From IMG/VR virus record IMGVR_UViG_2778261009_000004: a DNA stretch of 28,707 nucleotides; one strand, 5' to 3'. Below are positions 3,674 to 26,624 of the stretch, piece after piece; the stretch's first letter is position 1, and each line of letters opens with the position of its first letter. The position numbers and the translations under genes were made by a program. The notes beneath the pieces were generated by a model. It was given only the letters and a program-made list of their open reading frames with translations. It was not told the DNA's origin and did no database searches. The DNA comes from a virus (Duplodnaviria; Heunggongvirae; Uroviricota; Caudoviricetes).

Positions 3674-4321
3674 TCAGCGGCCAATCACCACAACCTGACC
3701 ACCGTCCCCTTCATCTGCCGTGCTGATCTCCTGAGAAACCACACGAGACCCCACACGCATTTCACCGTACAGAACAGGCAGAACATTGCCCTGGGCAACC
3801 ATGTTATCCAGTGACGAGAAATACGTGTTCTGTTTGCCGTTATCTGTACTGGCTGCCGTGGGCGTCCTGGCTTTCGGTGCCAGCATCTGCGCCACACCAC
3901 CCAGGATCATACTGGCCCCTGCTGCATACAGACCCGATACAGCCGCGGCCCCCAGCCAGCCAACAGGGTTCCACCATGCCACCGCAATCAGCGCCGCACC
4001 CAGCACCGCCTGAAACACACCGCCACTTTTGGCACCCGCCAGACGCGGAACGACGTGGATCACGGCACCATTTGCCAGCGGTTCATTAAGACGGGCAGAT
4101 AATTCATTTTCGCCTGCATCACGCCCGGAAATGCGCACCTGATACCAGCCCTCATTCAGTTTCTGGCGAAACGACGGAAGCTGTGTGGCCAGCGCCCGGA
4201 TGGCTTCGGCCCCCGTTTTCACACGAAGGTCGATGCGGCGGCCAAATCGTTGTAAATCCCCGTAAAGGCAGATGCGTGCCATGCCCGGTGACGCCAGAGG
4301 GAGTGTGTGCGTCGCTGCCAT
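3674..4321 (-). CDS. I: Tail tip assembly protein I
   Basis: 215-aa ORF whose N-terminus (MAATHTLPLASPGMARICLYGDLQRFGRRIDLRVKTG) and C-terminus (SQEISTADEGDGGQVVVIGR) match lambda I as remembered. Its 5' end overlaps the 3' end of K by about 100 nt in another frame, as in lambda. Confidence 0.9.
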   Translation of the reverse strand: MAATHTLPLASPGMARICLYGDLQRFGRRIDLRVKTGAEAIRALATQLPSFRQKLNEGWYQVRISGRDAGENELSARLNEPLANGAVIHVVPRLAGAKSGGVFQAVLGAALIAVAWWNPVGWLGAAAVSGLYAAGASMILGGVAQMLAPKARTPTAASTDNGKQNTYFSSLDNMVAQGNVLPVLYGEMRVGSRVVSQEISTADEGDGGQVVVIGR

Positions 4322-4962
4322 TTGTCGGTATACCTCTCTCGTTTGCTCAGTTGTTCAGGAATATGGTGCAGCAGCTCGCCGTCACCACAGTAAATGGCGG
4401 CATGATTCGGCACCGATGAACCAAAACAGCACAGCAGCACATCGCCCGGCTGCGCCGCTGACAACGGCACCTGATACAGCCCTGTGGCCTCCAGATTATC
4501 CAGATAGAGATTCTGACCGTGACGCCACCAGTCATCCTCGCGATGAAAATCCGGCATCTCAATCCCCGCCAGATGGTAAGCATCCCGGAACAGCGTGTAA
4601 CAGTCCGTCACCCCGTGCTCAAAGCGCCGCCCGGTAAGATGTGGCACACAGCGGAACTTGTGAATCGCCCCCCGGCAGACCAGCCACCACGGCAAATCAC
4701 TCTGCACCTGCAGCCGCCGGTCGGCCTCACTCAGCCAGGGCAGACCACCGGGGTGGCTGTGGACCAGTGCCACAATCTCACCCTGCATCTCTGCCTGCAG
4801 CCAGTCCTCCGGAGCCATCCGGAAATAATCCTCCGGCTCACCGGAAATATTCACGCAGGGAAAATATCTTTCCCCCTCCGGCGCCCTCACCACGAAGCCG
4901 CACGACTCCGCTGGCGCACATCGCCGGGCGTGCGCCAGAATCGCTGATTCTGTCTCTGTCAT
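4219..4962 (-). CDS. K: Tail tip assembly protein K (JAB/MPN metallo-protease motif plus NlpC/P60-like domain)
   Basis: 247-aa ORF with HSHPGG...SEAD (JAMM-like) motif; located between L and I. Classical lambda K annotation is shorter (about 199 aa, from memory), which would correspond to a start near 4818. The longer ORF fills the gap back to L. Confidence 0.85.
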   Translation of the reverse strand: MTETESAILAHARRCAPAESCGFVVRAPEGERYFPCVNISGEPEDYFRMAPEDWLQAEMQGEIVALVHSHPGGLPWLSEADRRLQVQSDLPWWLVCRGAIHKFRCVPHLTGRRFEHGVTDCYTLFRDAYHLAGIEMPDFHREDDWWRHGQNLYLDNLEATGLYQVPLSAAQPGDVLLCCFGSSVPNHAAIYCGDGELLHHIPEQLSKRERYTDKWQRRTHSLWRHRAWHASAFTGIYNDLAAASTFV

Positions 4963-4967
4963 GGGAT

Positions 4968-5666
4968 TTACTGCGAAAGTTTGTTAATGGAAAGGAAGCC
5001 GCCAAAGTTGCCGACGTTATTGCGAAACTTACAGCCGCTCAGGCATTTGCTGCATTTATCCTTCGTGATATCGGACGTCGGCTGGTCATATTCATCCGCG
5101 ACCGCCGGACCGCTATAACCGCACTCATCGCCGCGATAGGTCCAGGTGCAGGTGTTGGCCAGCATGATACACCCCGGAAAAACAGAGCCATCCGTTTCAG
5201 TCGGTGTGGACAGTACAAAAGAGACACTGACCGCGCTCAGTTCGCTGCACTGCTCGATGCGCCAGCGGCTGATCACCTCCTGCTCCGGATCGGCTTCGCT
5301 GTTTCCGTTGACGAAGTTCACCGCATCCAGAAAACGGGCGTAAACCTTACGCCTGACCACCGTTCCGCCGACCAGACTCTGCAGGTCTTCCGCCATCCCG
5401 GTGACCATGCCGTGCAGGTTAGAGACCGTCAGTGTCGGACGGGCAGCACTGCCCTTACCGTTCAGTTCAAATCCCGTCCCCTGAATGGGATACGGCTGAT
5501 ACTGCCACCCCTGCCAGGTGACCGGCTCACCTTTTTCGTTCTGCTCATTACAGAAAAAATAACGTTCACCACCGACCTCTGTCAGATCGATTTCCCAGAG
5601 CACCACCTGGGCTGACTGAGTGAGGCGTGTCGTCTCATGATGTGTTTCCTGTGGAATATCCTGCAT
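4968..5666 (-). CDS. L: Tail tip assembly protein L
   Basis: 232-aa ORF, same length as lambda L; MQDI...VVLWEIDLTEVGGERYFFCNE...CxxC motifs. Confidence 0.9.
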   Translation of the reverse strand: MQDIPQETHHETTRLTQSAQVVLWEIDLTEVGGERYFFCNEQNEKGEPVTWQGWQYQPYPIQGTGFELNGKGSAARPTLTVSNLHGMVTGMAEDLQSLVGGTVVRRKVYARFLDAVNFVNGNSEADPEQEVISRWRIEQCSELSAVSVSFVLSTPTETDGSVFPGCIMLANTCTWTYRGDECGYSGPAVADEYDQPTSDITKDKCSKCLSGCKFRNNVGNFGGFLSINKLSQ

Positions 5667-23845: not shown

Positions 23846-24050
23846 ATGACAGGAATTGTCAAAAACTTTGACTACAAAAGCAGCAAAGGTCTTATATTCC
23901 CATCCGATGGCGTATCGATGCCCAGCTTCACGTTTCAGCTCTCAATCTTCGAGATGCAGAAGAAATTACCACAGGATTACGCGTGGAATTTTGCCGGATA
24001 AATGGTTCGCGTGGACCTTCAACTGCCAATGTTTATCCCGGGATGAGATT
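23846..24050 (+). pseudogene. cspF: cspF/cspH-like cold-shock gene disrupted by a frameshift
   Basis: Frame 1 from ATG 23846 encodes the N-terminal cold-shock-domain motif [22 protein letters not shown] then junk until a stop at 23999. The rest of the domain ([42 protein letters not shown]) lies in another frame from about 23910. The frames switch at GATGGC|GTATCG, about 23909-23912. Confidence 0.55.
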
Positions 24051-24082
24051 CAATATCTCTATTGCCCCATTTAAAGCACAAA

Positions 24083-24102
24083 AACCCGCTTATAAGCGGG
24101 TT
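24083..24102. terminator. Bidirectional intrinsic terminator (candidate tR' for the late operon leader; also 3' of the cspF-like gene)
   Basis: AACCCGC-TTATAA-GCGGGTT followed by TTTTCTACTTTTTT on plus; on minus it is followed by a T-rich run. About 110 nt downstream of the Q stop. Confidence 0.5.
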
Positions 24103-24150
24103 TTCTACTTTTTTCTAAACGTCGGATACACAAAGCCCATCGTTGAGAAA

Positions 24151-24179
24151 ATCTTATCCATGTTTTTTGAAAAATGCAA
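24151..24179 (-). promoter_or_regulatory. Candidate late promoter (PR'-like) immediately downstream of Q
   Basis: Minus strand: -35 TTGCAT (24179..24174), 17-bp spacer, -10 TAAGAT (24156..24151), followed about 50 nt later by the terminator hairpin. Pattern match only. Confidence 0.3.
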
Positions 24180-24210
24180 ACATCATGTCGCCATCTTCAG
24201 CAAAAATCAT

Positions 24211-24963
24211 TTATCTCGTCACCTTCCTCAATTGCGCTTCCGCGTATGCTTCTTCCTGCCAGCACTTTGTTACCAGTTTACCAATGACGTCCGCATACCC
24301 CTTATACCACTGATAATCGGTCAGGTCTGGTACCAGCTTCTGGACATGACGTCGTGCCAGCGTGGTCGGTAAACGACTAAACCGGTTTCCATTACAACGC
24401 CCACAAATCTTATATACCGGTACGCCATGAAACCGGGTTCTTTTTTCATCCAGAACAATCCCTTTACCCTTACACCCTCTGCACGCTGTGCTGACTTCGC
24501 CCTTACCATGGCAATGCTGACATAGTTCCTTTACCCATTCTTCCTTGATTACAGATTCCCCGCGTCTGTAGTGTTTCACCACTTCGCGCAATACATTATA
24601 AAATCCCGTACCTGAACAATGCTCACAGCGAGCCTTACTTGCCGCAGACCTGGAGTAATCAGCAAAGGCAAAATTCACGAGGTAAGGAATAATCTGTAAC
24701 CGGATTTCTTCACTCAATTTGTTCAATGTCGGGTTATCCAGTGCCATCGCGTAATTTAGCAGGCCTTCAATCGCAAACTGAGGGTCCTGAACACCAACTT
24801 TTGCCAGAAATAAGGCCAACCCAAGTGGTGCTTTCGACTGCACCATCCCCTGCGCTGCCATTACATCCGTAATTGTTAAACAACCGGTGCCTGTCGCTGG
24901 AGCGTCATCGCTCAATTTTGGAGATTTTGGGGAGTAATATTTTGGTAAGGCTTCAAGGTTCAT
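24211..24963 (-). CDS. Late-gene antiterminator Q (Qin quuQ-type, four CxxC pairs)
   Basis: 250 aa; CEHCSGTG...CQHCHGKG...CRGCKGKG...CGRCNG zinc-binding motifs; located immediately upstream of the late region. Confidence 0.8.
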
Positions 24964-24976
24964 GCTCGTTCTCCAC

Positions 24977-26065
24977 TTACGCCAGTACGCCAGTTGCCAG
25001 CGCGCGATCGATAAAACGAAATATCAGCTCCAGTTGGGAGCCATACTTCTCTTCAAATGCCACTGTATCCGTATGCAGCTCGTTGTGATGCTTTCTGCAC
25101 AAAGGCAACACAAAGAGATCATGTGCTTTTGTTCCCATTCCGCCCTGCCCGTGACCAATCAGATGATGCGGATCGTCGGCTGGCATACCGCAGCAAGCAC
25201 ACGGCTGTGTCTTAACCCAACGAGTGTATTTCTCCTTAACCCAGCGGCGACGTTTAGGCAGCTTCATGAAAGATTCCGGAGACTCTGGATCAACGGTGAT
25301 GCTTACCACCGTCTTTTCCTGTGGTGGTTTTTGTTGCTGTTGGGCGTAAGGCAACGGTGCAAGATTTTTTGTGCGTTGTTTCAATATGCTGGTGGCGGTC
25401 TGCTCTCCCGGTACGATGTCGCTTTCGCGGTACACCGAGCAGATTTTTTCCGCTGGTAATCCCAGCGAACGACGCGATACAGCCTCAGGTAGTGCATCTA
25501 CCACCTGATTGCAGACCGCCCACCAGGATAATTCAGCCAAAGATAATTCCCGCTCCTGCGTACCGCTTATTGCGTGACGGATGACGTCAATCACCCATGC
25601 TGTCAGATTTTGTTGAGCAAGCAGCTCCAGTGATTCCGATGTCTGGTCACGCAGATGGTTGTCGCAGTGCCAGCACAACACCATTGCGCCGGTACCATAA
25701 CGGTGAATGACTGTTTCAGTGTGATGGTAATCGCCATTAGGCCACTGGCAGGATGTAACATGACGTAATAGCCAGTCAGACAATGCGCCAACGCCGCCAG
25801 CAGCACGAATCACCCGTTCGTTACTAAAAAACGGCAGCAATGTTTTGTCTTCCGCCAGCGGCTGGCGAACGGCAGGAACGACTCCGGATGGCAGATTACG
25901 CATGCTTTTTGGTTCCGGTTCCACCAGCACTCGAGGATTATGAAATATCTGTATGGATTCACGGCCCGGCTTAAGGACCACCAGCCCAAGCTCAGGCACC
26001 AGAACAGGTCTAAGTAATACCCGCACGTTACCTCCAGATCCGTTGCTGGAAAGTGCGGGACGCAC
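24977..26065 (-). CDS. DUF968 protein (YdfU-like) with C-terminal HNH-like Cys/His motif
   Basis: 362-aa ORF; C-terminal ...CACCGMPADDPHHLIGHGQGGMGTKAHDLFVLPLCRKHHNELH resembles an HNH/His-Me finger. True start may be an internal Met (for example about 25903). Confidence 0.6.
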   Translation of the reverse strand: MRPALSSNGSGGNVRVLLRPVLVPELGLVVLKPGRESIQIFHNPRVLVEPEPKSMRNLPSGVVPAVRQPLAEDKTLLPFFSNERVIRAAGGVGALSDWLLRHVTSCQWPNGDYHHTETVIHRYGTGAMVLCWHCDNHLRDQTSESLELLAQQNLTAWVIDVIRHAISGTQERELSLAELSWWAVCNQVVDALPEAVSRRSLGLPAEKICSVYRESDIVPGEQTATSILKQRTKNLAPLPYAQQQQKPPQEKTVVSITVDPESPESFMKLPKRRRWVKEKYTRWVKTQPCACCGMPADDPHHLIGHGQGGMGTKAHDLFVLPLCRKHHNELHTDTVAFEEKYGSQLELIFRFIDRALATGVLA

Positions 26066-26306
26066 GTGGTGGGCGTTCGGAATAAGGCAGCCTGACAGAG
26101 ATTATCCAGTGCCGATAGTCGAGACTGAGAGCTTTCTTAACCTCGAACCCGCGCCTGCGGTAAGAATGAATCAGCCATTCGGCCTGTTCTGCAGTGCATG
26201 GAGGGTGCTGGAACCATTCAGACTTGAATGCGTGAGAATACCGCCCGTGCGTGCAGGCAAGAACGGGCGAATTATCAGAATTGTAATATTTTACGTTGCG
26301 TGCCAT
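26028..26306 (-). CDS. Hypothetical protein
   Basis: 92-aa ORF upstream of, and overlapping, the DUF968 ORF; no family recognised. Confidence 0.35.
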   Translation of the reverse strand: MARNVKYYNSDNSPVLACTHGRYSHAFKSEWFQHPPCTAEQAEWLIHSYRRRGFEVKKALSLDYRHWIISVRLPYSERPPRASRTFQQRIWR

Positions 26307-26372
26307 CGGTTTTCTCCGGTGGCACGGTGTTACTCAGCGGGAGTTCAGCCCCGTGCAAGATTGTAGATGAGT

Positions 26373-26624
26373 TTATTCTTCTGCAAAAGCTGAAAAGCCT
26401 GCTTTTATTCCGATCTCTTTCAGTGCCTGTAATGAAGTGACAAACTCACCTTCGCGCAAGATAAATCCGTCCGTGACCCGAGCATCCACAAAATTAATTA
26501 ACGCAGCTCCATTCTTTCGCAAACACATAATGCGGTAATGACTAACAAGATTTCCATTTTCAACGCACACAGCATAGAGGCCATCTTCACAAAAAATTTT
26601 ACGCAGTTCTTCGATGTTCATCAT
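26373..26624 (-). CDS. rem: Rem-like protein (Qin prophage)
   Basis: 83-aa ORF MMNIEELRKIFCEDGLYAVCVENG... in the position (between hokD and DUF968) and of the length of E. coli rem, from memory. Confidence 0.6.
   Translation of the reverse strand: MMNIEELRKIFCEDGLYAVCVENGNLVSHYRIMCLRKNGAALINFVDARVTDGFILREGEFVTSLQALKEIGIKAGFSAFAEE

What the first reader, a model, noticed from the sequence alone, without database searches (positions are those of the whole stretch)
24977..26306. DUF968 protein with HNH-like motif plus an overlapping upstream 92-aa ORF between the toxin-antitoxin region and Q
The C-terminus of the DUF968 protein has a Cys/His pattern (CxCCG...DPHH...H...C..HH..H) that looks like an HNH/His-Me nuclease finger. 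The 92-aa ORF just upstream overlaps its start. Nuclease-like genes of unknown role in the nin/Q-proximal region could be recombination functions (NinG/Rap-like) or something else; this is the only candidate in the window for an uncharacterised enzymatic function.
Basis: inference. Interest (0 to 1): 0.35.

Follow-up and report, generated by a model that had tools for sequence, protein, structure and literature searches.

The report
Prophage nuclease gene with small leader gene
This is the known E. coli Qin-prophage gene ydfU, an untested zinc-finger HNH-type nuclease, preceded by a real, conserved 92-codon gene that the K-12 reference annotation omits and whose relatives sit just upstream of the recombination nuclease in many lambda-like phages.

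Summary
Both ORFs and the Cys/His motif are present as described. The "overlap" is not real. It comes from taking the longest ORF.

- **ydfU start.** YdfU starts at GTG 26026 (349 aa). That is one base after the TAA stop of the 92-aa ORF, and a GGAGG ribosome-binding site lies inside that ORF's last codons.
- **YdfU.** It is 98% identical to K-12 YdfU and matches Pfam DUF968 at E 1.8e-76. It has already been published as a His-Me (HNH) finger protein, group 7, together with YbcO (PDB 3g27). All zinc and catalytic residues are intact. The N-terminal half (about aa 1-190) carries a second conserved Cys/His site and matches no known fold.
- **92-aa ORF.** It is a real gene. dN/dS is 0.12 for codons 27-91, against 3.7 and 1.5 in the shifted frames. 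It is basic (pI 10.2), and its confidently modelled core is β-α-β-β. It has no Pfam or NCBIfam family and is not annotated in MG1655.
- **Its family.** About 66-aa relatives (PHROG 1212) occur in temperate phages of Enterobacterales. They nearly always sit immediately upstream of the nin-region nuclease, which may be NinG, YbcO+RusA or YdfU(+RusA).

Best reading: a translationally coupled recombination-nuclease cassette that fills the slot λ Rap/NinG occupies. No biochemistry exists for either protein. This is ordinary, with one modest new comparative observation.

The parts
26028..26306 (-). 92-aa gene (ATG 26306, stop TAA 26030-26028). Small basic protein of the PHROG 1212 family. Residues 1-26 form a weakly constrained, disordered extension. 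Residues 28-75 form a β-α-β-β core, followed by a conserved Arg/Pro-rich tail, VRLPYSERPPRxSRTFQQRIWR.
   Evidence: ORF. PGAP calls it WP_001309521.1, hypothetical protein. PHROG 1212 at E 1.7e-35 over aa 27-92. No Pfam or NCBIfam hit. dN/dS: core 0.15, tail 0.20, N-extension 0.64. AF2 pLDDT above 90 for about aa 31-70. pI 10.2.
26314..26317 (-). GGAG Shine-Dalgarno, 7 nt upstream of the ATG of the 92-aa gene.
   Evidence: Read directly from the sequence. Identical in K-12.
26031..26035 (-). GGAGG Shine-Dalgarno for ydfU, formed by the last two sense codons (TGG AGG = W-R) of the 92-aa gene. The junction TGGAGG-TAA-C-GTG implies translational coupling.
   Evidence: Sequence. The same TAA-N-GTG junction occurs in 79 of 79 IMG/VR relatives. 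An analogous TGGGGG-TGA-NN-ATG junction occurs in the 66-aa family upstream of NinG and YbcO.
24977..26026 (-). ydfU coding sequence (GTG 26026, 349 aa, stop 24977-24979). DUF968 / YdfU-family protein.
   Evidence: Start codon settled.
25457..26026 (-). YdfU N-terminal domain (about aa 1-190). It has no Pfam family, and PHROG 11007 covers aa 2-134. It is conserved down to P1 PdcB.
   Evidence: AF2 pLDDT is about 90 for aa 61-190. No significant Foldseek match. No relation to λ Orf/NinB.
25664..25750 (-). Conserved Cys/His cluster of the N-terminal domain: C93-Q94 ... H101 ... C118-W-H-C/H121-D-N123. Putative second zinc site, at a β-hairpin (aa 105-118) followed by a helix (aa 119-125).
   Evidence: Invariant columns in alignments A7 and A8. 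Secondary structure. Zinc binding is inferred, not shown.
25259..25435 (-). Low-confidence, variable linker (about aa 198-256), including the Gln-rich stretch PYAQQQQKPPQEK.
   Evidence: AF2 pLDDT below 50 for aa 198-206 and 224-256. Indel-rich.
24980..25255 (-). C-terminal His-Me (HNH, ββα-metal) finger domain (about aa 258-349).
   Evidence: Pfam DUF968, HNHc_6 and RecA_dep_nuc. PHROGs 96, 131, 22514 and 7370 'HNH endonuclease'. hhalign to YbcO. PDB profile search gives 3g27 as top hit at E 0.044, then the IscB HNH domain.
25073..25201 (-). Catalytic and zinc core: C276-x-x-C279 ... D285-P-H287-H288 ... K300 ... D303 ... C310-x-x-H313-H314 ... H318.
   Evidence: C276, C279, D285, P286, H287, H288, K300, D303, C310 and H318 are invariant, and H314 is at least 90% conserved, in 37 homologues from six genera. 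The roles assigned to residues are inferred from the alignment to YbcO.
24211..24963 (-). Context: ydfT, a Q-type antiterminator starting 13 nt after the ydfU stop. Qin-type elements have no rusA here.
   Evidence: Pfam Antiterm at E 2.9e-54. rusA lies between the YdfU gene and Q in 57 of 76 relatives.
26373..26624 (-). Context: rem, the gene upstream of the 92-aa gene, followed by hokD, relE and relB.

Best explanation
The locus is a two-gene, translationally coupled cassette in the nin (early-right) operon of a Qin-type lambdoid cryptic prophage. I infer that it supplies the phage's recombination or branched-DNA nuclease function.

Gene 1 (26306-26028) encodes a small, basic β-α-β-β protein with an Arg/Pro-rich tail. 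Its last two codons form the ribosome-binding site for gene 2.

Gene 2 (ydfU, GTG 26026) encodes a protein with three parts:
- an N-terminal domain with a putative zinc site (C93, H101, C118, C121);
- a flexible linker;
- a C-terminal ββα-metal (HNH) nuclease. Here zinc would be held by C276, C279, C310 and H313. H288 (with H287) would be the general base, and D303, H314 and H318 would serve the catalytic metal.

Shown: gene structure and start codon, purifying selection on both genes, DUF968/His-Me membership with intact motifs, and conserved position.

Inferred:
- YdfU cuts DNA, and probably acts on branched recombination or replication intermediates during lytic growth. It would be the positional counterpart of λ Rap/NinG, working alongside RusA where rusA is present.
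- The small protein is an accessory factor of this nuclease module, either DNA-binding or regulatory. Its family precedes NinG, YbcO+RusA, RusA+YdfU or YdfU(+RusA) in different phages.
- In a lysogen the cassette is silent. In K-12, a very strong Rho-dependent terminator has been reported upstream of ydfU.
For: Gene structure:
- Coordinates and start codon.
- The TGGAGG-TAA-N-GTG junction is present in 79 of 79 relatives, and 74 of 79 keep an intact 90-92-aa ORF.

Selection on the small gene:
- dN/dS is 0.12 for codons 27-91, against 3.7 and 1.5 in the shifted frames.

Nuclease domain:
- DUF968 at E 1.8e-76, plus weak HNHc_6 and RecA_dep_nuc matches.
- PHROG 96 'HNH endonuclease'.
- hhalign to YbcO at 72% probability, E 3.4e-5.
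- PDB profile search: top hit YbcO 3g27, then the IscB HNH domain.
- Foldseek top hits are HNH proteins, though not significant.
- Motif residues are invariant.
- Literature.

Position in the nuclease slot:
- In 80 IMG/VR loci carrying the 66-aa family, the next gene is NinG in 53 (none followed by RusA), YbcO in 15 (all followed by RusA), a mini-HNH in 5, a Cys-rich unknown in 4, and a NinG remnant in 3.
- The same pattern holds in Gifsy-2, mEp237, phiES15, a Klebsiella phage and Edwardsiella GF-2. Citrobacter phage Chris1 has small gene, then RusA, then YdfU.
- Divergent Escherichia 90-92-aa homologues (63-71% identity) are, where the next gene was called, followed by DUF968, and usually then RusA and Q, with three different Q families.

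Link to RusA:
- In SfV, mEp390, Salmonella phage 118970_sal3 and Vibrio phage Pm34, RusA lies one or two genes upstream of the YdfU homologue instead.

Silencing:
- Rho-dependent terminator upstream of ydfU (PMC9160355).
Against: - No nuclease activity, substrate or phenotype has been reported for any DUF968/YdfU protein. I found none in the literature held here.
- YdfU is not a NinG family member (hhalign 2%), so 'Rap-like' rests on position only.
- Foldseek gave no significant match for either model. The HNH region of the YdfU model is only moderately confident.
- YbcO and YdfU usually travel with RusA, whereas NinG does not. YdfU may therefore do something other than junction resolution.
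- The small gene is not obligatory for YdfU. SfV, mEp390, and the Providencia and Vibrio phages lack it, and P1 has an unrelated 66-aa PdcA instead.
- The small gene is not always next to a nuclease. In Erwinia phage 59 a Dcm methylase and NinF intervene. In PY54 the next gene is a 175-aa protein with no nuclease motif.
- The association could reflect conserved gene order and a shared recombination boundary rather than a physical partnership.
Confidence: 0.55

Rival explanations
1. The pair is a toxin/immunity or defence-type module. YdfU would be a toxic nuclease aimed at host or competing phage DNA. The small upstream protein would be its inhibitor, like the immunity proteins of HNH colicins.
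For: - The cassette sits next to toxin-antitoxin genes in several contexts: hokD/relBE here, parDE or hok elsewhere, and phd-doc next to P1 pdcB.
- The Rho paper lists the terminator upstream of ydfU among those it says suppress toxic prophage genes.
- The two genes are tightly coupled.
Against: - PADLOC has no match for either protein.
- Many YdfU homologues lack the small gene altogether, which an essential antidote would not allow.
- The neighbouring toxin-antitoxin modules differ in type and often in strand, so they look like independent insertions.
- The constant neighbours are RusA and Q, which are core lambdoid functions.
- The same small family precedes NinG.
Confidence: 0.12
2. The small protein has a function of its own, unrelated to the nuclease. 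It keeps its position only because gene order in the nin region is conserved and its 3' end serves as a recombination boundary for swapping nuclease cassettes. YdfU would still be a nuclease.
For: - The downstream partner changes between unrelated or distantly related families (NinG, YbcO, YdfU, a Cys-rich protein) with no obvious change in the small protein's conserved core.
- The junction sequence is nearly identical across different downstream genes, which all begin MA(K/N/I).
- There are exceptions where the next gene is a methylase or an unknown protein.
Against: - The upstream neighbour varies freely: DUF1367, a weak NinB-like protein, RdgC, rem, or toxin-antitoxin genes.
- The downstream neighbour belongs to the nuclease module in at least 76 of 80 sampled loci.
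- Translational coupling is maintained in both subfamilies.
- One database protein, P0122, is an in-frame fusion of the 92-aa protein to YdfU. It comes from a single assembly, so it carries little weight.
Confidence: 0.25
3. YdfU is an HNH protein that assists the terminase in DNA packaging, as in HK97-like phages, rather than a recombination enzyme.
For: Full-length YdfU homologues occur in HK97-like (Hendrixvirinae) phages. From my own knowledge, HNH proteins are known terminase cofactors in that group.
Against: In every locus examined the gene lies in the early nin region directly upstream of Q, next to RusA. It is never next to terminase genes. I did not look for separate terminase-associated HNH genes in these phages.
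Confidence: 0.05

Closest known systems
E. coli K-12 YdfU (b1560, Qin prophage), Pfam DUF968 (PF06147), His-Me finger group 7 of Jablonska et al. 2017
   Same: It is the same gene. The window's protein is about 98% identical to K-12 YdfU and has the same neighbours. It scores 256 bits on DUF968. YdfU is named in the published classification.
   Different: Nothing material. The window's allele differs at a few residues. No member of the family has been studied biochemically.
YbcO (DLP12 and phage 82; Pfam PF07102, formerly DUF1364; PDB 3g27)
   Same: Both have a ββα-metal core with a CxxC...H...CxxC/H-H pattern. The profile match is 72% probability, E 3.4e-5. Both occupy the same slot upstream of RusA and Q, and in many phages both follow the same small leader gene.
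   Different: YbcO is a 96-aa single domain. YdfU carries an extra N-terminal region of about 250 aa, comprising a domain with a second Cys/His cluster and a linker.
λ NinG / Rap (PF05766), a branched-DNA-specific endonuclease
   Same: It holds the same position in the nin region just upstream of Q and is a His-Me finger protein. In Gifsy-1/2, Edwardsiella GF-2 and 53 of 80 IMG/VR loci it directly follows a PHROG 1212 gene with the same coupled junction.
   Different: There is no detectable sequence relationship beyond the CxxCG knuckle. NinG loci lack RusA, whereas YdfU and YbcO loci usually have it. λ itself has NinF, not a PHROG 1212 protein, in front of NinG.
P1 PdcB (with PdcA), downstream of phd-doc
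   Same: PdcB is a full-length YdfU homologue (26-28% identity, PHROG 96 at E 2e-128) with the N-terminal domain conserved. It is also preceded by a 66-aa ORF and lies next to a toxin-antitoxin pair.
   Different: PdcA is unrelated to the 92-aa protein. PdcB lacks the DDPHH, H314 and H318 residues, so its HNH site looks degenerate.
Gram-positive phage 'Orf-HNH' proteins (Curtis et al. 2014). They were filed under DUF968 at the time, and the Listeria members are now in HNHc_6.
   Same: They share a C-terminal zinc-finger HNH module and a proposed role in recombination.
   Different: Their N-terminal domain is reported to be λ Orf-like. The YdfU N-terminal domain shows no similarity to λ Orf/NinB (hhalign probability 0.07%; no NinB hit in Pfam).

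Membership tests
Pfam DUF968 (PF06147) / YdfU family | Match to the family HMM above the gathering score | tested here: met
   256.4 bits against a cut-off of 27.8, E 1.8e-76, covering the whole 171-position model. PHROG 96 covers the full length at E 2.5e-171.
His-Me finger (HNH, ββα-metal) nuclease superfamily | Conserved catalytic His after the first strand, an Asn/Asp, and a metal-binding His/Asn in the helix | tested here: met
   D285, P286, H287, H288, D303 and H318 are invariant, and H314 is at least 90% conserved, in 37 homologues. The region aligns to the YbcO core.
His-Me finger (HNH, ββα-metal) nuclease superfamily | Structural zinc site of the CxxC...CxxC/H type flanking the finger | tested here: met
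   C276, C279 and C310 are invariant, and H313 is present in the window sequence. Metal binding itself was not tested.
His-Me finger (HNH, ββα-metal) nuclease superfamily | Significant sequence or profile similarity to an established member | tested here: met
   hhalign against YbcO gives 72% probability, E 3.4e-5. HNHc_6 matches at E 1.2e-5 but scores 25.4 bits against a 26.6 cut-off. Several HNH PHROGs match. The support is moderate.
His-Me finger (HNH, ββα-metal) nuclease superfamily | ββα fold confirmed by structure comparison | tested here: inconclusive
   The AF2 model has mean pLDDT 76. Foldseek against the PDB found nothing at E <= 0.001. Six of the top seven hits are HNH proteins (IscB, Cas5-HNH, Cap5) at E 1-4.
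His-Me finger (HNH, ββα-metal) nuclease superfamily | Metal-dependent nuclease activity | not testable with these tools
   This needs a biochemical assay. I found no published assay.
NinG / Rap (PF05766) | Match to the family HMM or profile | tested here: not met
   No Pfam NinG hit. hhalign against λ NinG gives 2% probability, covering only the CxxCG knuckle. YdfU is therefore a positional analogue, not a member.
λ Orf / NinB-like N-terminal domain (as proposed for Gram-positive 'DUF968' proteins) | Similarity of the N-terminal domain to λ Orf | tested here: not met
   hhalign probability 0.07%. No NinB hit in Pfam.
PHROG 1212 (small phage protein of unknown function), for the 92-aa ORF | Match to the family HMM over its full length | tested here: met
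   E 1.7e-35, with aa 27-92 covering positions 1-66 of the 66-position model. A profile search found 71 relatives, most about 66 aa long.
NinF (PF05810), for the 92-aa ORF | Sequence or profile similarity to λ NinF, which holds the same position upstream of NinG | tested here: not met
   No Pfam hit. hhalign probability 0.1%. Erwinia phage 59 carries both genes.
Known anti-phage defence or toxin-antitoxin proteins | Match to a PADLOC model | tested here: not met
   No hits for YdfU, the 92-aa protein or Rem.

The most novel reading that the evidence does not exclude
The PHROG 1212 small basic protein, represented here by the 92-aa ORF that K-12 leaves unannotated, could be a shared accessory subunit or regulator used by several different His-Me nuclease families (NinG/Rap, YbcO, YdfU) in lambdoid phages. 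It might target them to branched DNA or restrain them. The YdfU N-terminal zinc domain could be a new DNA-recognition fold.
Probability: 0.25. Interest if true: 0.5.

Novelty: already known. Interest (0 to 1): 0.27.

Why it matters
YdfU belongs to the uncharacterised 'y-ome' of E. coli K-12, and related genes are common in Escherichia prophages: at least 84% identical copies in IMG/VR prophage contigs, and about 57-80% identical homologues in Stx-converting phages.

The useful results here are practical:
- The ydfU start codon is fixed.
- A conserved 92-codon gene is missing from the MG1655 reference annotation at NC_000913.3 1644306-1644584, minus strand. It lies in the stretch upstream of ydfU, where a very strong Rho-dependent terminator has been reported.
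- Its family marks the 5' edge of the interchangeable recombination-nuclease slot of lambdoid phages.

This gives phage-recombination researchers a defined two-gene unit to test. It does not reveal a new kind of system.

Tried and rejected
- **Programmed +1 frameshift or read-through fusing the 92-aa ORF to YdfU.** The ydfU frame stays open for 25 codons upstream in most relatives. I rejected the idea for three reasons. Homologues that lack the small gene start at the same residue. 43 of 54 relatives have no upstream in-frame start. The junction carries a canonical SD-stop-start arrangement. The single fused database protein, P0122, looks like a 13-nt deletion in one assembly.
- **Tail conservation as an overlap artefact.** I considered whether the near-invariant C-terminal tail reflects only overlap or ribosome-binding-site constraint. 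Synonymous changes are present (pS about 0.29-0.30, dN/dS 0.09-0.20), and the LP...PR...QQ.iW motif persists in 66-aa relatives at 30-45% identity. The constraint is therefore on the protein, although the final W-R/G codons also form the downstream ribosome-binding site.
- **P1 PdcA as a homologue of the small protein.** It is not.
- **λ NinF as a homologue of the small protein.** It is not.
- **PF27659 as a family for the YdfU N-terminal domain.** This family was listed for some fused proteins. It belongs to the Q part of those fusions.
- **Structure searches for the small protein.** The PDB gave nothing significant. The best hit was E 0.23, with generic β-α-β-β folds such as R3H and SPOR. 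BFVD gave only N15 Orf QD1 at E 7e-4, which has no function assigned.
- **Genome scan.** The genome-contig scan returned only 7 close relatives and added little. A search with the full diverse small-protein alignment in viral contigs failed for lack of a conserved block. A sub-alignment worked.
- **Cys-rich proteins in the nuclease slot.** The 141-148-aa Cys-rich proteins could not be shown to be HNH. hhalign aligned only the CxxCG knuckle.
Full report
**What is there.** The window matches E. coli chromosomes carrying a Qin-type cryptic prophage. The best match is strain NCTC9064 at 99.9% identity, and at least 80% of the 1.8-kb stretch is present in 2408 of 5426 complete E. coli genomes. On the minus strand the gene order is relB, relE, hokD, rem (26373-26624), a 92-aa ORF (26028-26306), ydfU (24977-26026), then ydfT, a Q antiterminator (24211-24963). 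The C-terminus reads QPCACCGMPADDPHHLIGHGQGGMGTKAHDLFVLPLCRKHHNELH.

**The overlap is an artefact.** The 362-aa ORF from GTG 26065 is only the longest possible reading. Several results place the start at GTG 26026.
- PGAP and the curated K-12 annotation both start YdfU there, giving 349 aa.
- Full-length homologues down to 28% identity (SfV orf45, mEp390, Salmonella 118970_sal3, Klebsiella, Providencia and Vibrio phages, P1 PdcB) all begin at the equivalent M/V-R/K-x-L-L.
- Among 54 distinct Escherichia sequences, 43 have no in-frame start codon in the 25 codons upstream. Only 5 have the GTG equivalent to 26065.

On the minus strand the junction reads TGG AGG TAA C GTG. The last two sense codons of the small ORF form a GGAGG Shine-Dalgarno. 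The stop codon is at 26030-26028, one base follows, and then comes the ydfU start. This TAA-N-GTG junction is present in 79 of 79 IMG/VR relatives that have upstream DNA. The two genes are therefore adjacent and translationally coupled, not overlapping.

**YdfU.**
- *Family.* It matches Pfam DUF968 at E 1.8e-76, with sub-threshold HNHc_6 (25.4 bits against 26.6) and RecA_dep_nuc matches. PHROG 96 'HNH endonuclease' covers the whole protein. NCBIfam and PADLOC give nothing.
- *Relation to known nucleases.* A profile of 37 homologues from Escherichia, Proteus, Morganella, Photorhabdus, Xenorhabdus and Yersinia aligns residues H287-G329 to the core of YbcO at 72% probability, E 3.4e-5. In the PDB sequence search, YbcO (3g27) is the top hit at E 0.044, followed by the IscB HNH domain.
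- *Conserved residues.* C276, C279, D285, P286, H287, H288, K300, D303, C310 and H318 are invariant, and H314 is nearly so.
- *Structure model.* The AF2 model has mean pLDDT 76. It shows a well-modelled region at aa 61-190, a disordered linker at aa 198-256, and the C-terminal finger. Foldseek found no significant PDB match. Its top hits are HNH proteins (IscB, Cas5-HNH, Cap5) at E 1-4, so the structural test is inconclusive.
- *Prior publication.* Jablonska et al. 2017 place DUF968 and DUF1364 in His-Me finger group 7. They name YdfU and YbcO and propose a recombination role based on neighbours such as RusA and Q. Curtis et al. 2014 described Gram-positive 'DUF968' proteins as a λ Orf-like domain fused to HNH. 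That does not apply here, because the YdfU N-terminal half shows no similarity to λ Orf.
- *N-terminal half.* It has its own invariant cluster, C93-Q94, H101, C118-W-H-(C/H)121-D-N123 and N140, at a β-hairpin followed by a helix. I read this as a probable second zinc site in a domain with no recognisable relatives. That is an inference.

**The 92-aa ORF is a real gene.**
- *Annotation status.* PGAP annotates it as a hypothetical protein, WP_001309521.1. Every source names it only 'hypothetical' or 'prophage protein'. It is intact in K-12 MG1655 at NC_000913.3 1644306-1644584 (minus strand), with one V5A difference, but the reference annotation leaves this 346-bp gap between ydfU and rem empty.
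- *Conservation.* Homologues of 90-92 aa occur in E. coli, Shigella, E. albertii and E. marmotae at 63-98% identity.
- *Selection.* With 54 distinct sequences, dN/dS is 0.15 for the core (aa 27-70), 0.20 for the tail (aa 71-92) and 0.64 for the first 26 residues. For codons 27-91 it is 0.12 in frame, against 3.7 and 1.5 in the shifted frames, which contain stops (an 8-sequence set gave similar values).
- *Properties.* The protein is basic, pI 10.2. AF2 models β(28-33)-α(39-52)-β(56-60)-β(67-75) with pLDDT above 90 over about aa 31-70, and a disordered N-terminus.
- *Family and fold.* It has no Pfam or NCBIfam family. PHROG 1212 (unknown function) covers aa 27-92. Foldseek gives nothing significant in the PDB. 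In BFVD the only hit is N15 Orf QD1.

**The wider family and its neighbours.** An exhaustive profile search found 71 relatives. Most are about 66-aa proteins that align to residues 28-92. tblastn finds the family in 59 phage records from Escherichia, Salmonella (Gifsy-1, Gifsy-2, SPN3UB), Klebsiella, Cronobacter, Citrobacter, Edwardsiella, Yersinia, Hafnia, Erwinia and Pantoea.

In 80 IMG/VR loci carrying such a gene, the gene immediately downstream is:

| Downstream gene | Loci | RusA follows? |
|---|---|---|
| NinG | 53 | none |
| YbcO | 15 | all 15 |
| YbcO-like mini-HNH | 5 | none |
| Cys-rich 141-148-aa protein, no family | 4 | none |
| NinG remnant | 3 | none |

. The junction is again coupled, TGG GGG TGA NN ATG. 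Individual phages agree.
- Gifsy-2 and Edwardsiella GF-2: small gene, then NinG.
- mEp237, phiES15 and a Klebsiella phage: small gene, then YbcO, RusA and Q.
- Citrobacter Chris1: small gene, then RusA, then YdfU.

There are two exceptions. In Erwinia phage 59 a Dcm methylase and NinF sit between the small gene and NinG. In PY54 the next gene is a 175-aa protein with no nuclease motif.

The upstream neighbour varies: DUF1367, a weak NinB-like protein, RdgC, rem, or toxin-antitoxin genes. In Escherichia the usual order is 92-aa gene, DUF968, RusA, Q, with three different Q families. RusA follows immediately in 57 of 76 IMG/VR relatives. The window, like K-12 Qin, has only 13 nt between ydfU and ydfT.

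YdfU homologues also occur without the small gene. In SfV, mEp390, 118970_sal3 and Vibrio phage Pm34, RusA lies one or two genes upstream instead. In P1, pdcB follows an unrelated 66-aa PdcA. The small family is unrelated to λ NinF, which holds the same position in λ.

**Interpretation.**
- *Shown.* The locus is a coupled two-gene unit under purifying selection. Its second gene is a DUF968/His-Me finger protein with an intact motif. It occupies the gene slot just upstream of Q that other lambdoid phages fill with NinG or with YbcO plus RusA.
- *Inferred.* YdfU is a DNA endonuclease acting on recombination or replication intermediates during lytic growth. That makes it a positional analogue of Rap rather than a relative. 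The small basic protein is an accessory factor of the nuclease module.
- *Weakest step.* The role assigned to the small protein. Conserved gene order, together with a shared recombination boundary at its 3' end, would explain the same pattern.
- *Rivals.* A toxin/immunity reading is weak, because there is no PADLOC hit and many YdfU genes lack the small gene. A packaging-cofactor reading does not fit the position next to Q and RusA.
- *Expression.* In K-12 the terminator upstream of ydfU is reported among the strongest Rho-dependent terminators (PMC9160355). That is consistent with the cassette being silent in the lysogen. The region concerned is where the unannotated ORF lies.

**Verdict.** Its interpretation is right but already published. 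The gene is K-12 ydfU. My additions are the start-codon assignment, evidence that the 92-aa ORF is a real gene missing from the MG1655 annotation, and the link between its family and the interchangeable nin-region nuclease slot. I found no description of that link in the papers held here, but I did not search for it specifically. Interest is low to moderate.

Noticed in passing
window 26028-26306 (= NC_000913.3 1644306-1644584, minus strand; locus L002 4307-4585): The conserved 92-aa gene is intact in E. coli K-12 MG1655 but absent from its reference annotation. The 346-bp gap between ydfU and rem is left empty there. PGAP genomes call the gene a hypothetical protein.
   Followed up: yes
window about 26027-26372, upstream of ydfU: A published study ranks the Rho-dependent terminator 'upstream of ydfU' among the strongest in K-12 (PMC9160355). 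That region holds the unannotated ORF, so the terminator may act within or just before a translated gene. I did not retrieve its exact coordinates.
   Followed up: partly
window 24964-24976: Only 13 nt separate ydfU from ydfT (Q). In 57 of 76 close relatives a rusA gene sits between them, so Qin-type elements appear to have lost rusA.
   Followed up: partly
window 24211-24963: The Q antiterminator YdfT carries a DnaJ-type CXXCXGXG cysteine-rich zinc-finger region (Pfam DnaJ_CXXCXGXG, E 7.9e-9) in front of its Antiterm domain.
   Followed up: no
window 23846-24372: cspF looks frameshifted here. A 51-aa ORF begins like CspF, and a second ORF in another frame continues with [11 protein letters not shown]... 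This matches the cspF pseudogene annotated in strain NCTC9064. K-12 has an intact cspF.
   Followed up: partly
L106 1405-2448 (phage P1 pdcB): P1 PdcB is a full-length YdfU homologue, but it lacks DDPHH, H314 and H318. Its HNH site is probably inactive or altered, while its N-terminal domain is conserved.
   Followed up: partly
L078 3204-3620, and also L092, L097 and L100: A Cys-rich 141-148-aa protein (PHROG 10082, no Pfam family) occupies the nuclease slot behind the small gene. It carries CxxCG...NHH...CPLCxxLH, which may mark an unrecognised His-Me finger family. hhalign aligned only the first knuckle.
   Followed up: partly
L005 (record titled 'MAG: Veillonella parvula', scaffold of 22.9 kb) and L009 (record titled 'Leifsonia sp.', contig of 248 bp): Both records carry DNA 94-98% identical to this E. 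coli prophage gene. This most likely reflects contamination or mis-binning in those assemblies.
   Followed up: no
L007 and L008 (E. coli strains ECMA0423 and ECGI0523), about 3900-5020: These are degraded copies of the same cassette. Both the small ORF and ydfU are broken by frameshifts.
   Followed up: partly
protein P0122 (438 aa, one assembly): This is an in-frame fusion of the 92-aa protein (through ...TFQQR) to full-length YdfU. It is consistent with a 13-nt deletion at the junction. It comes from a single sequence and could be an assembly error.
   Followed up: partly
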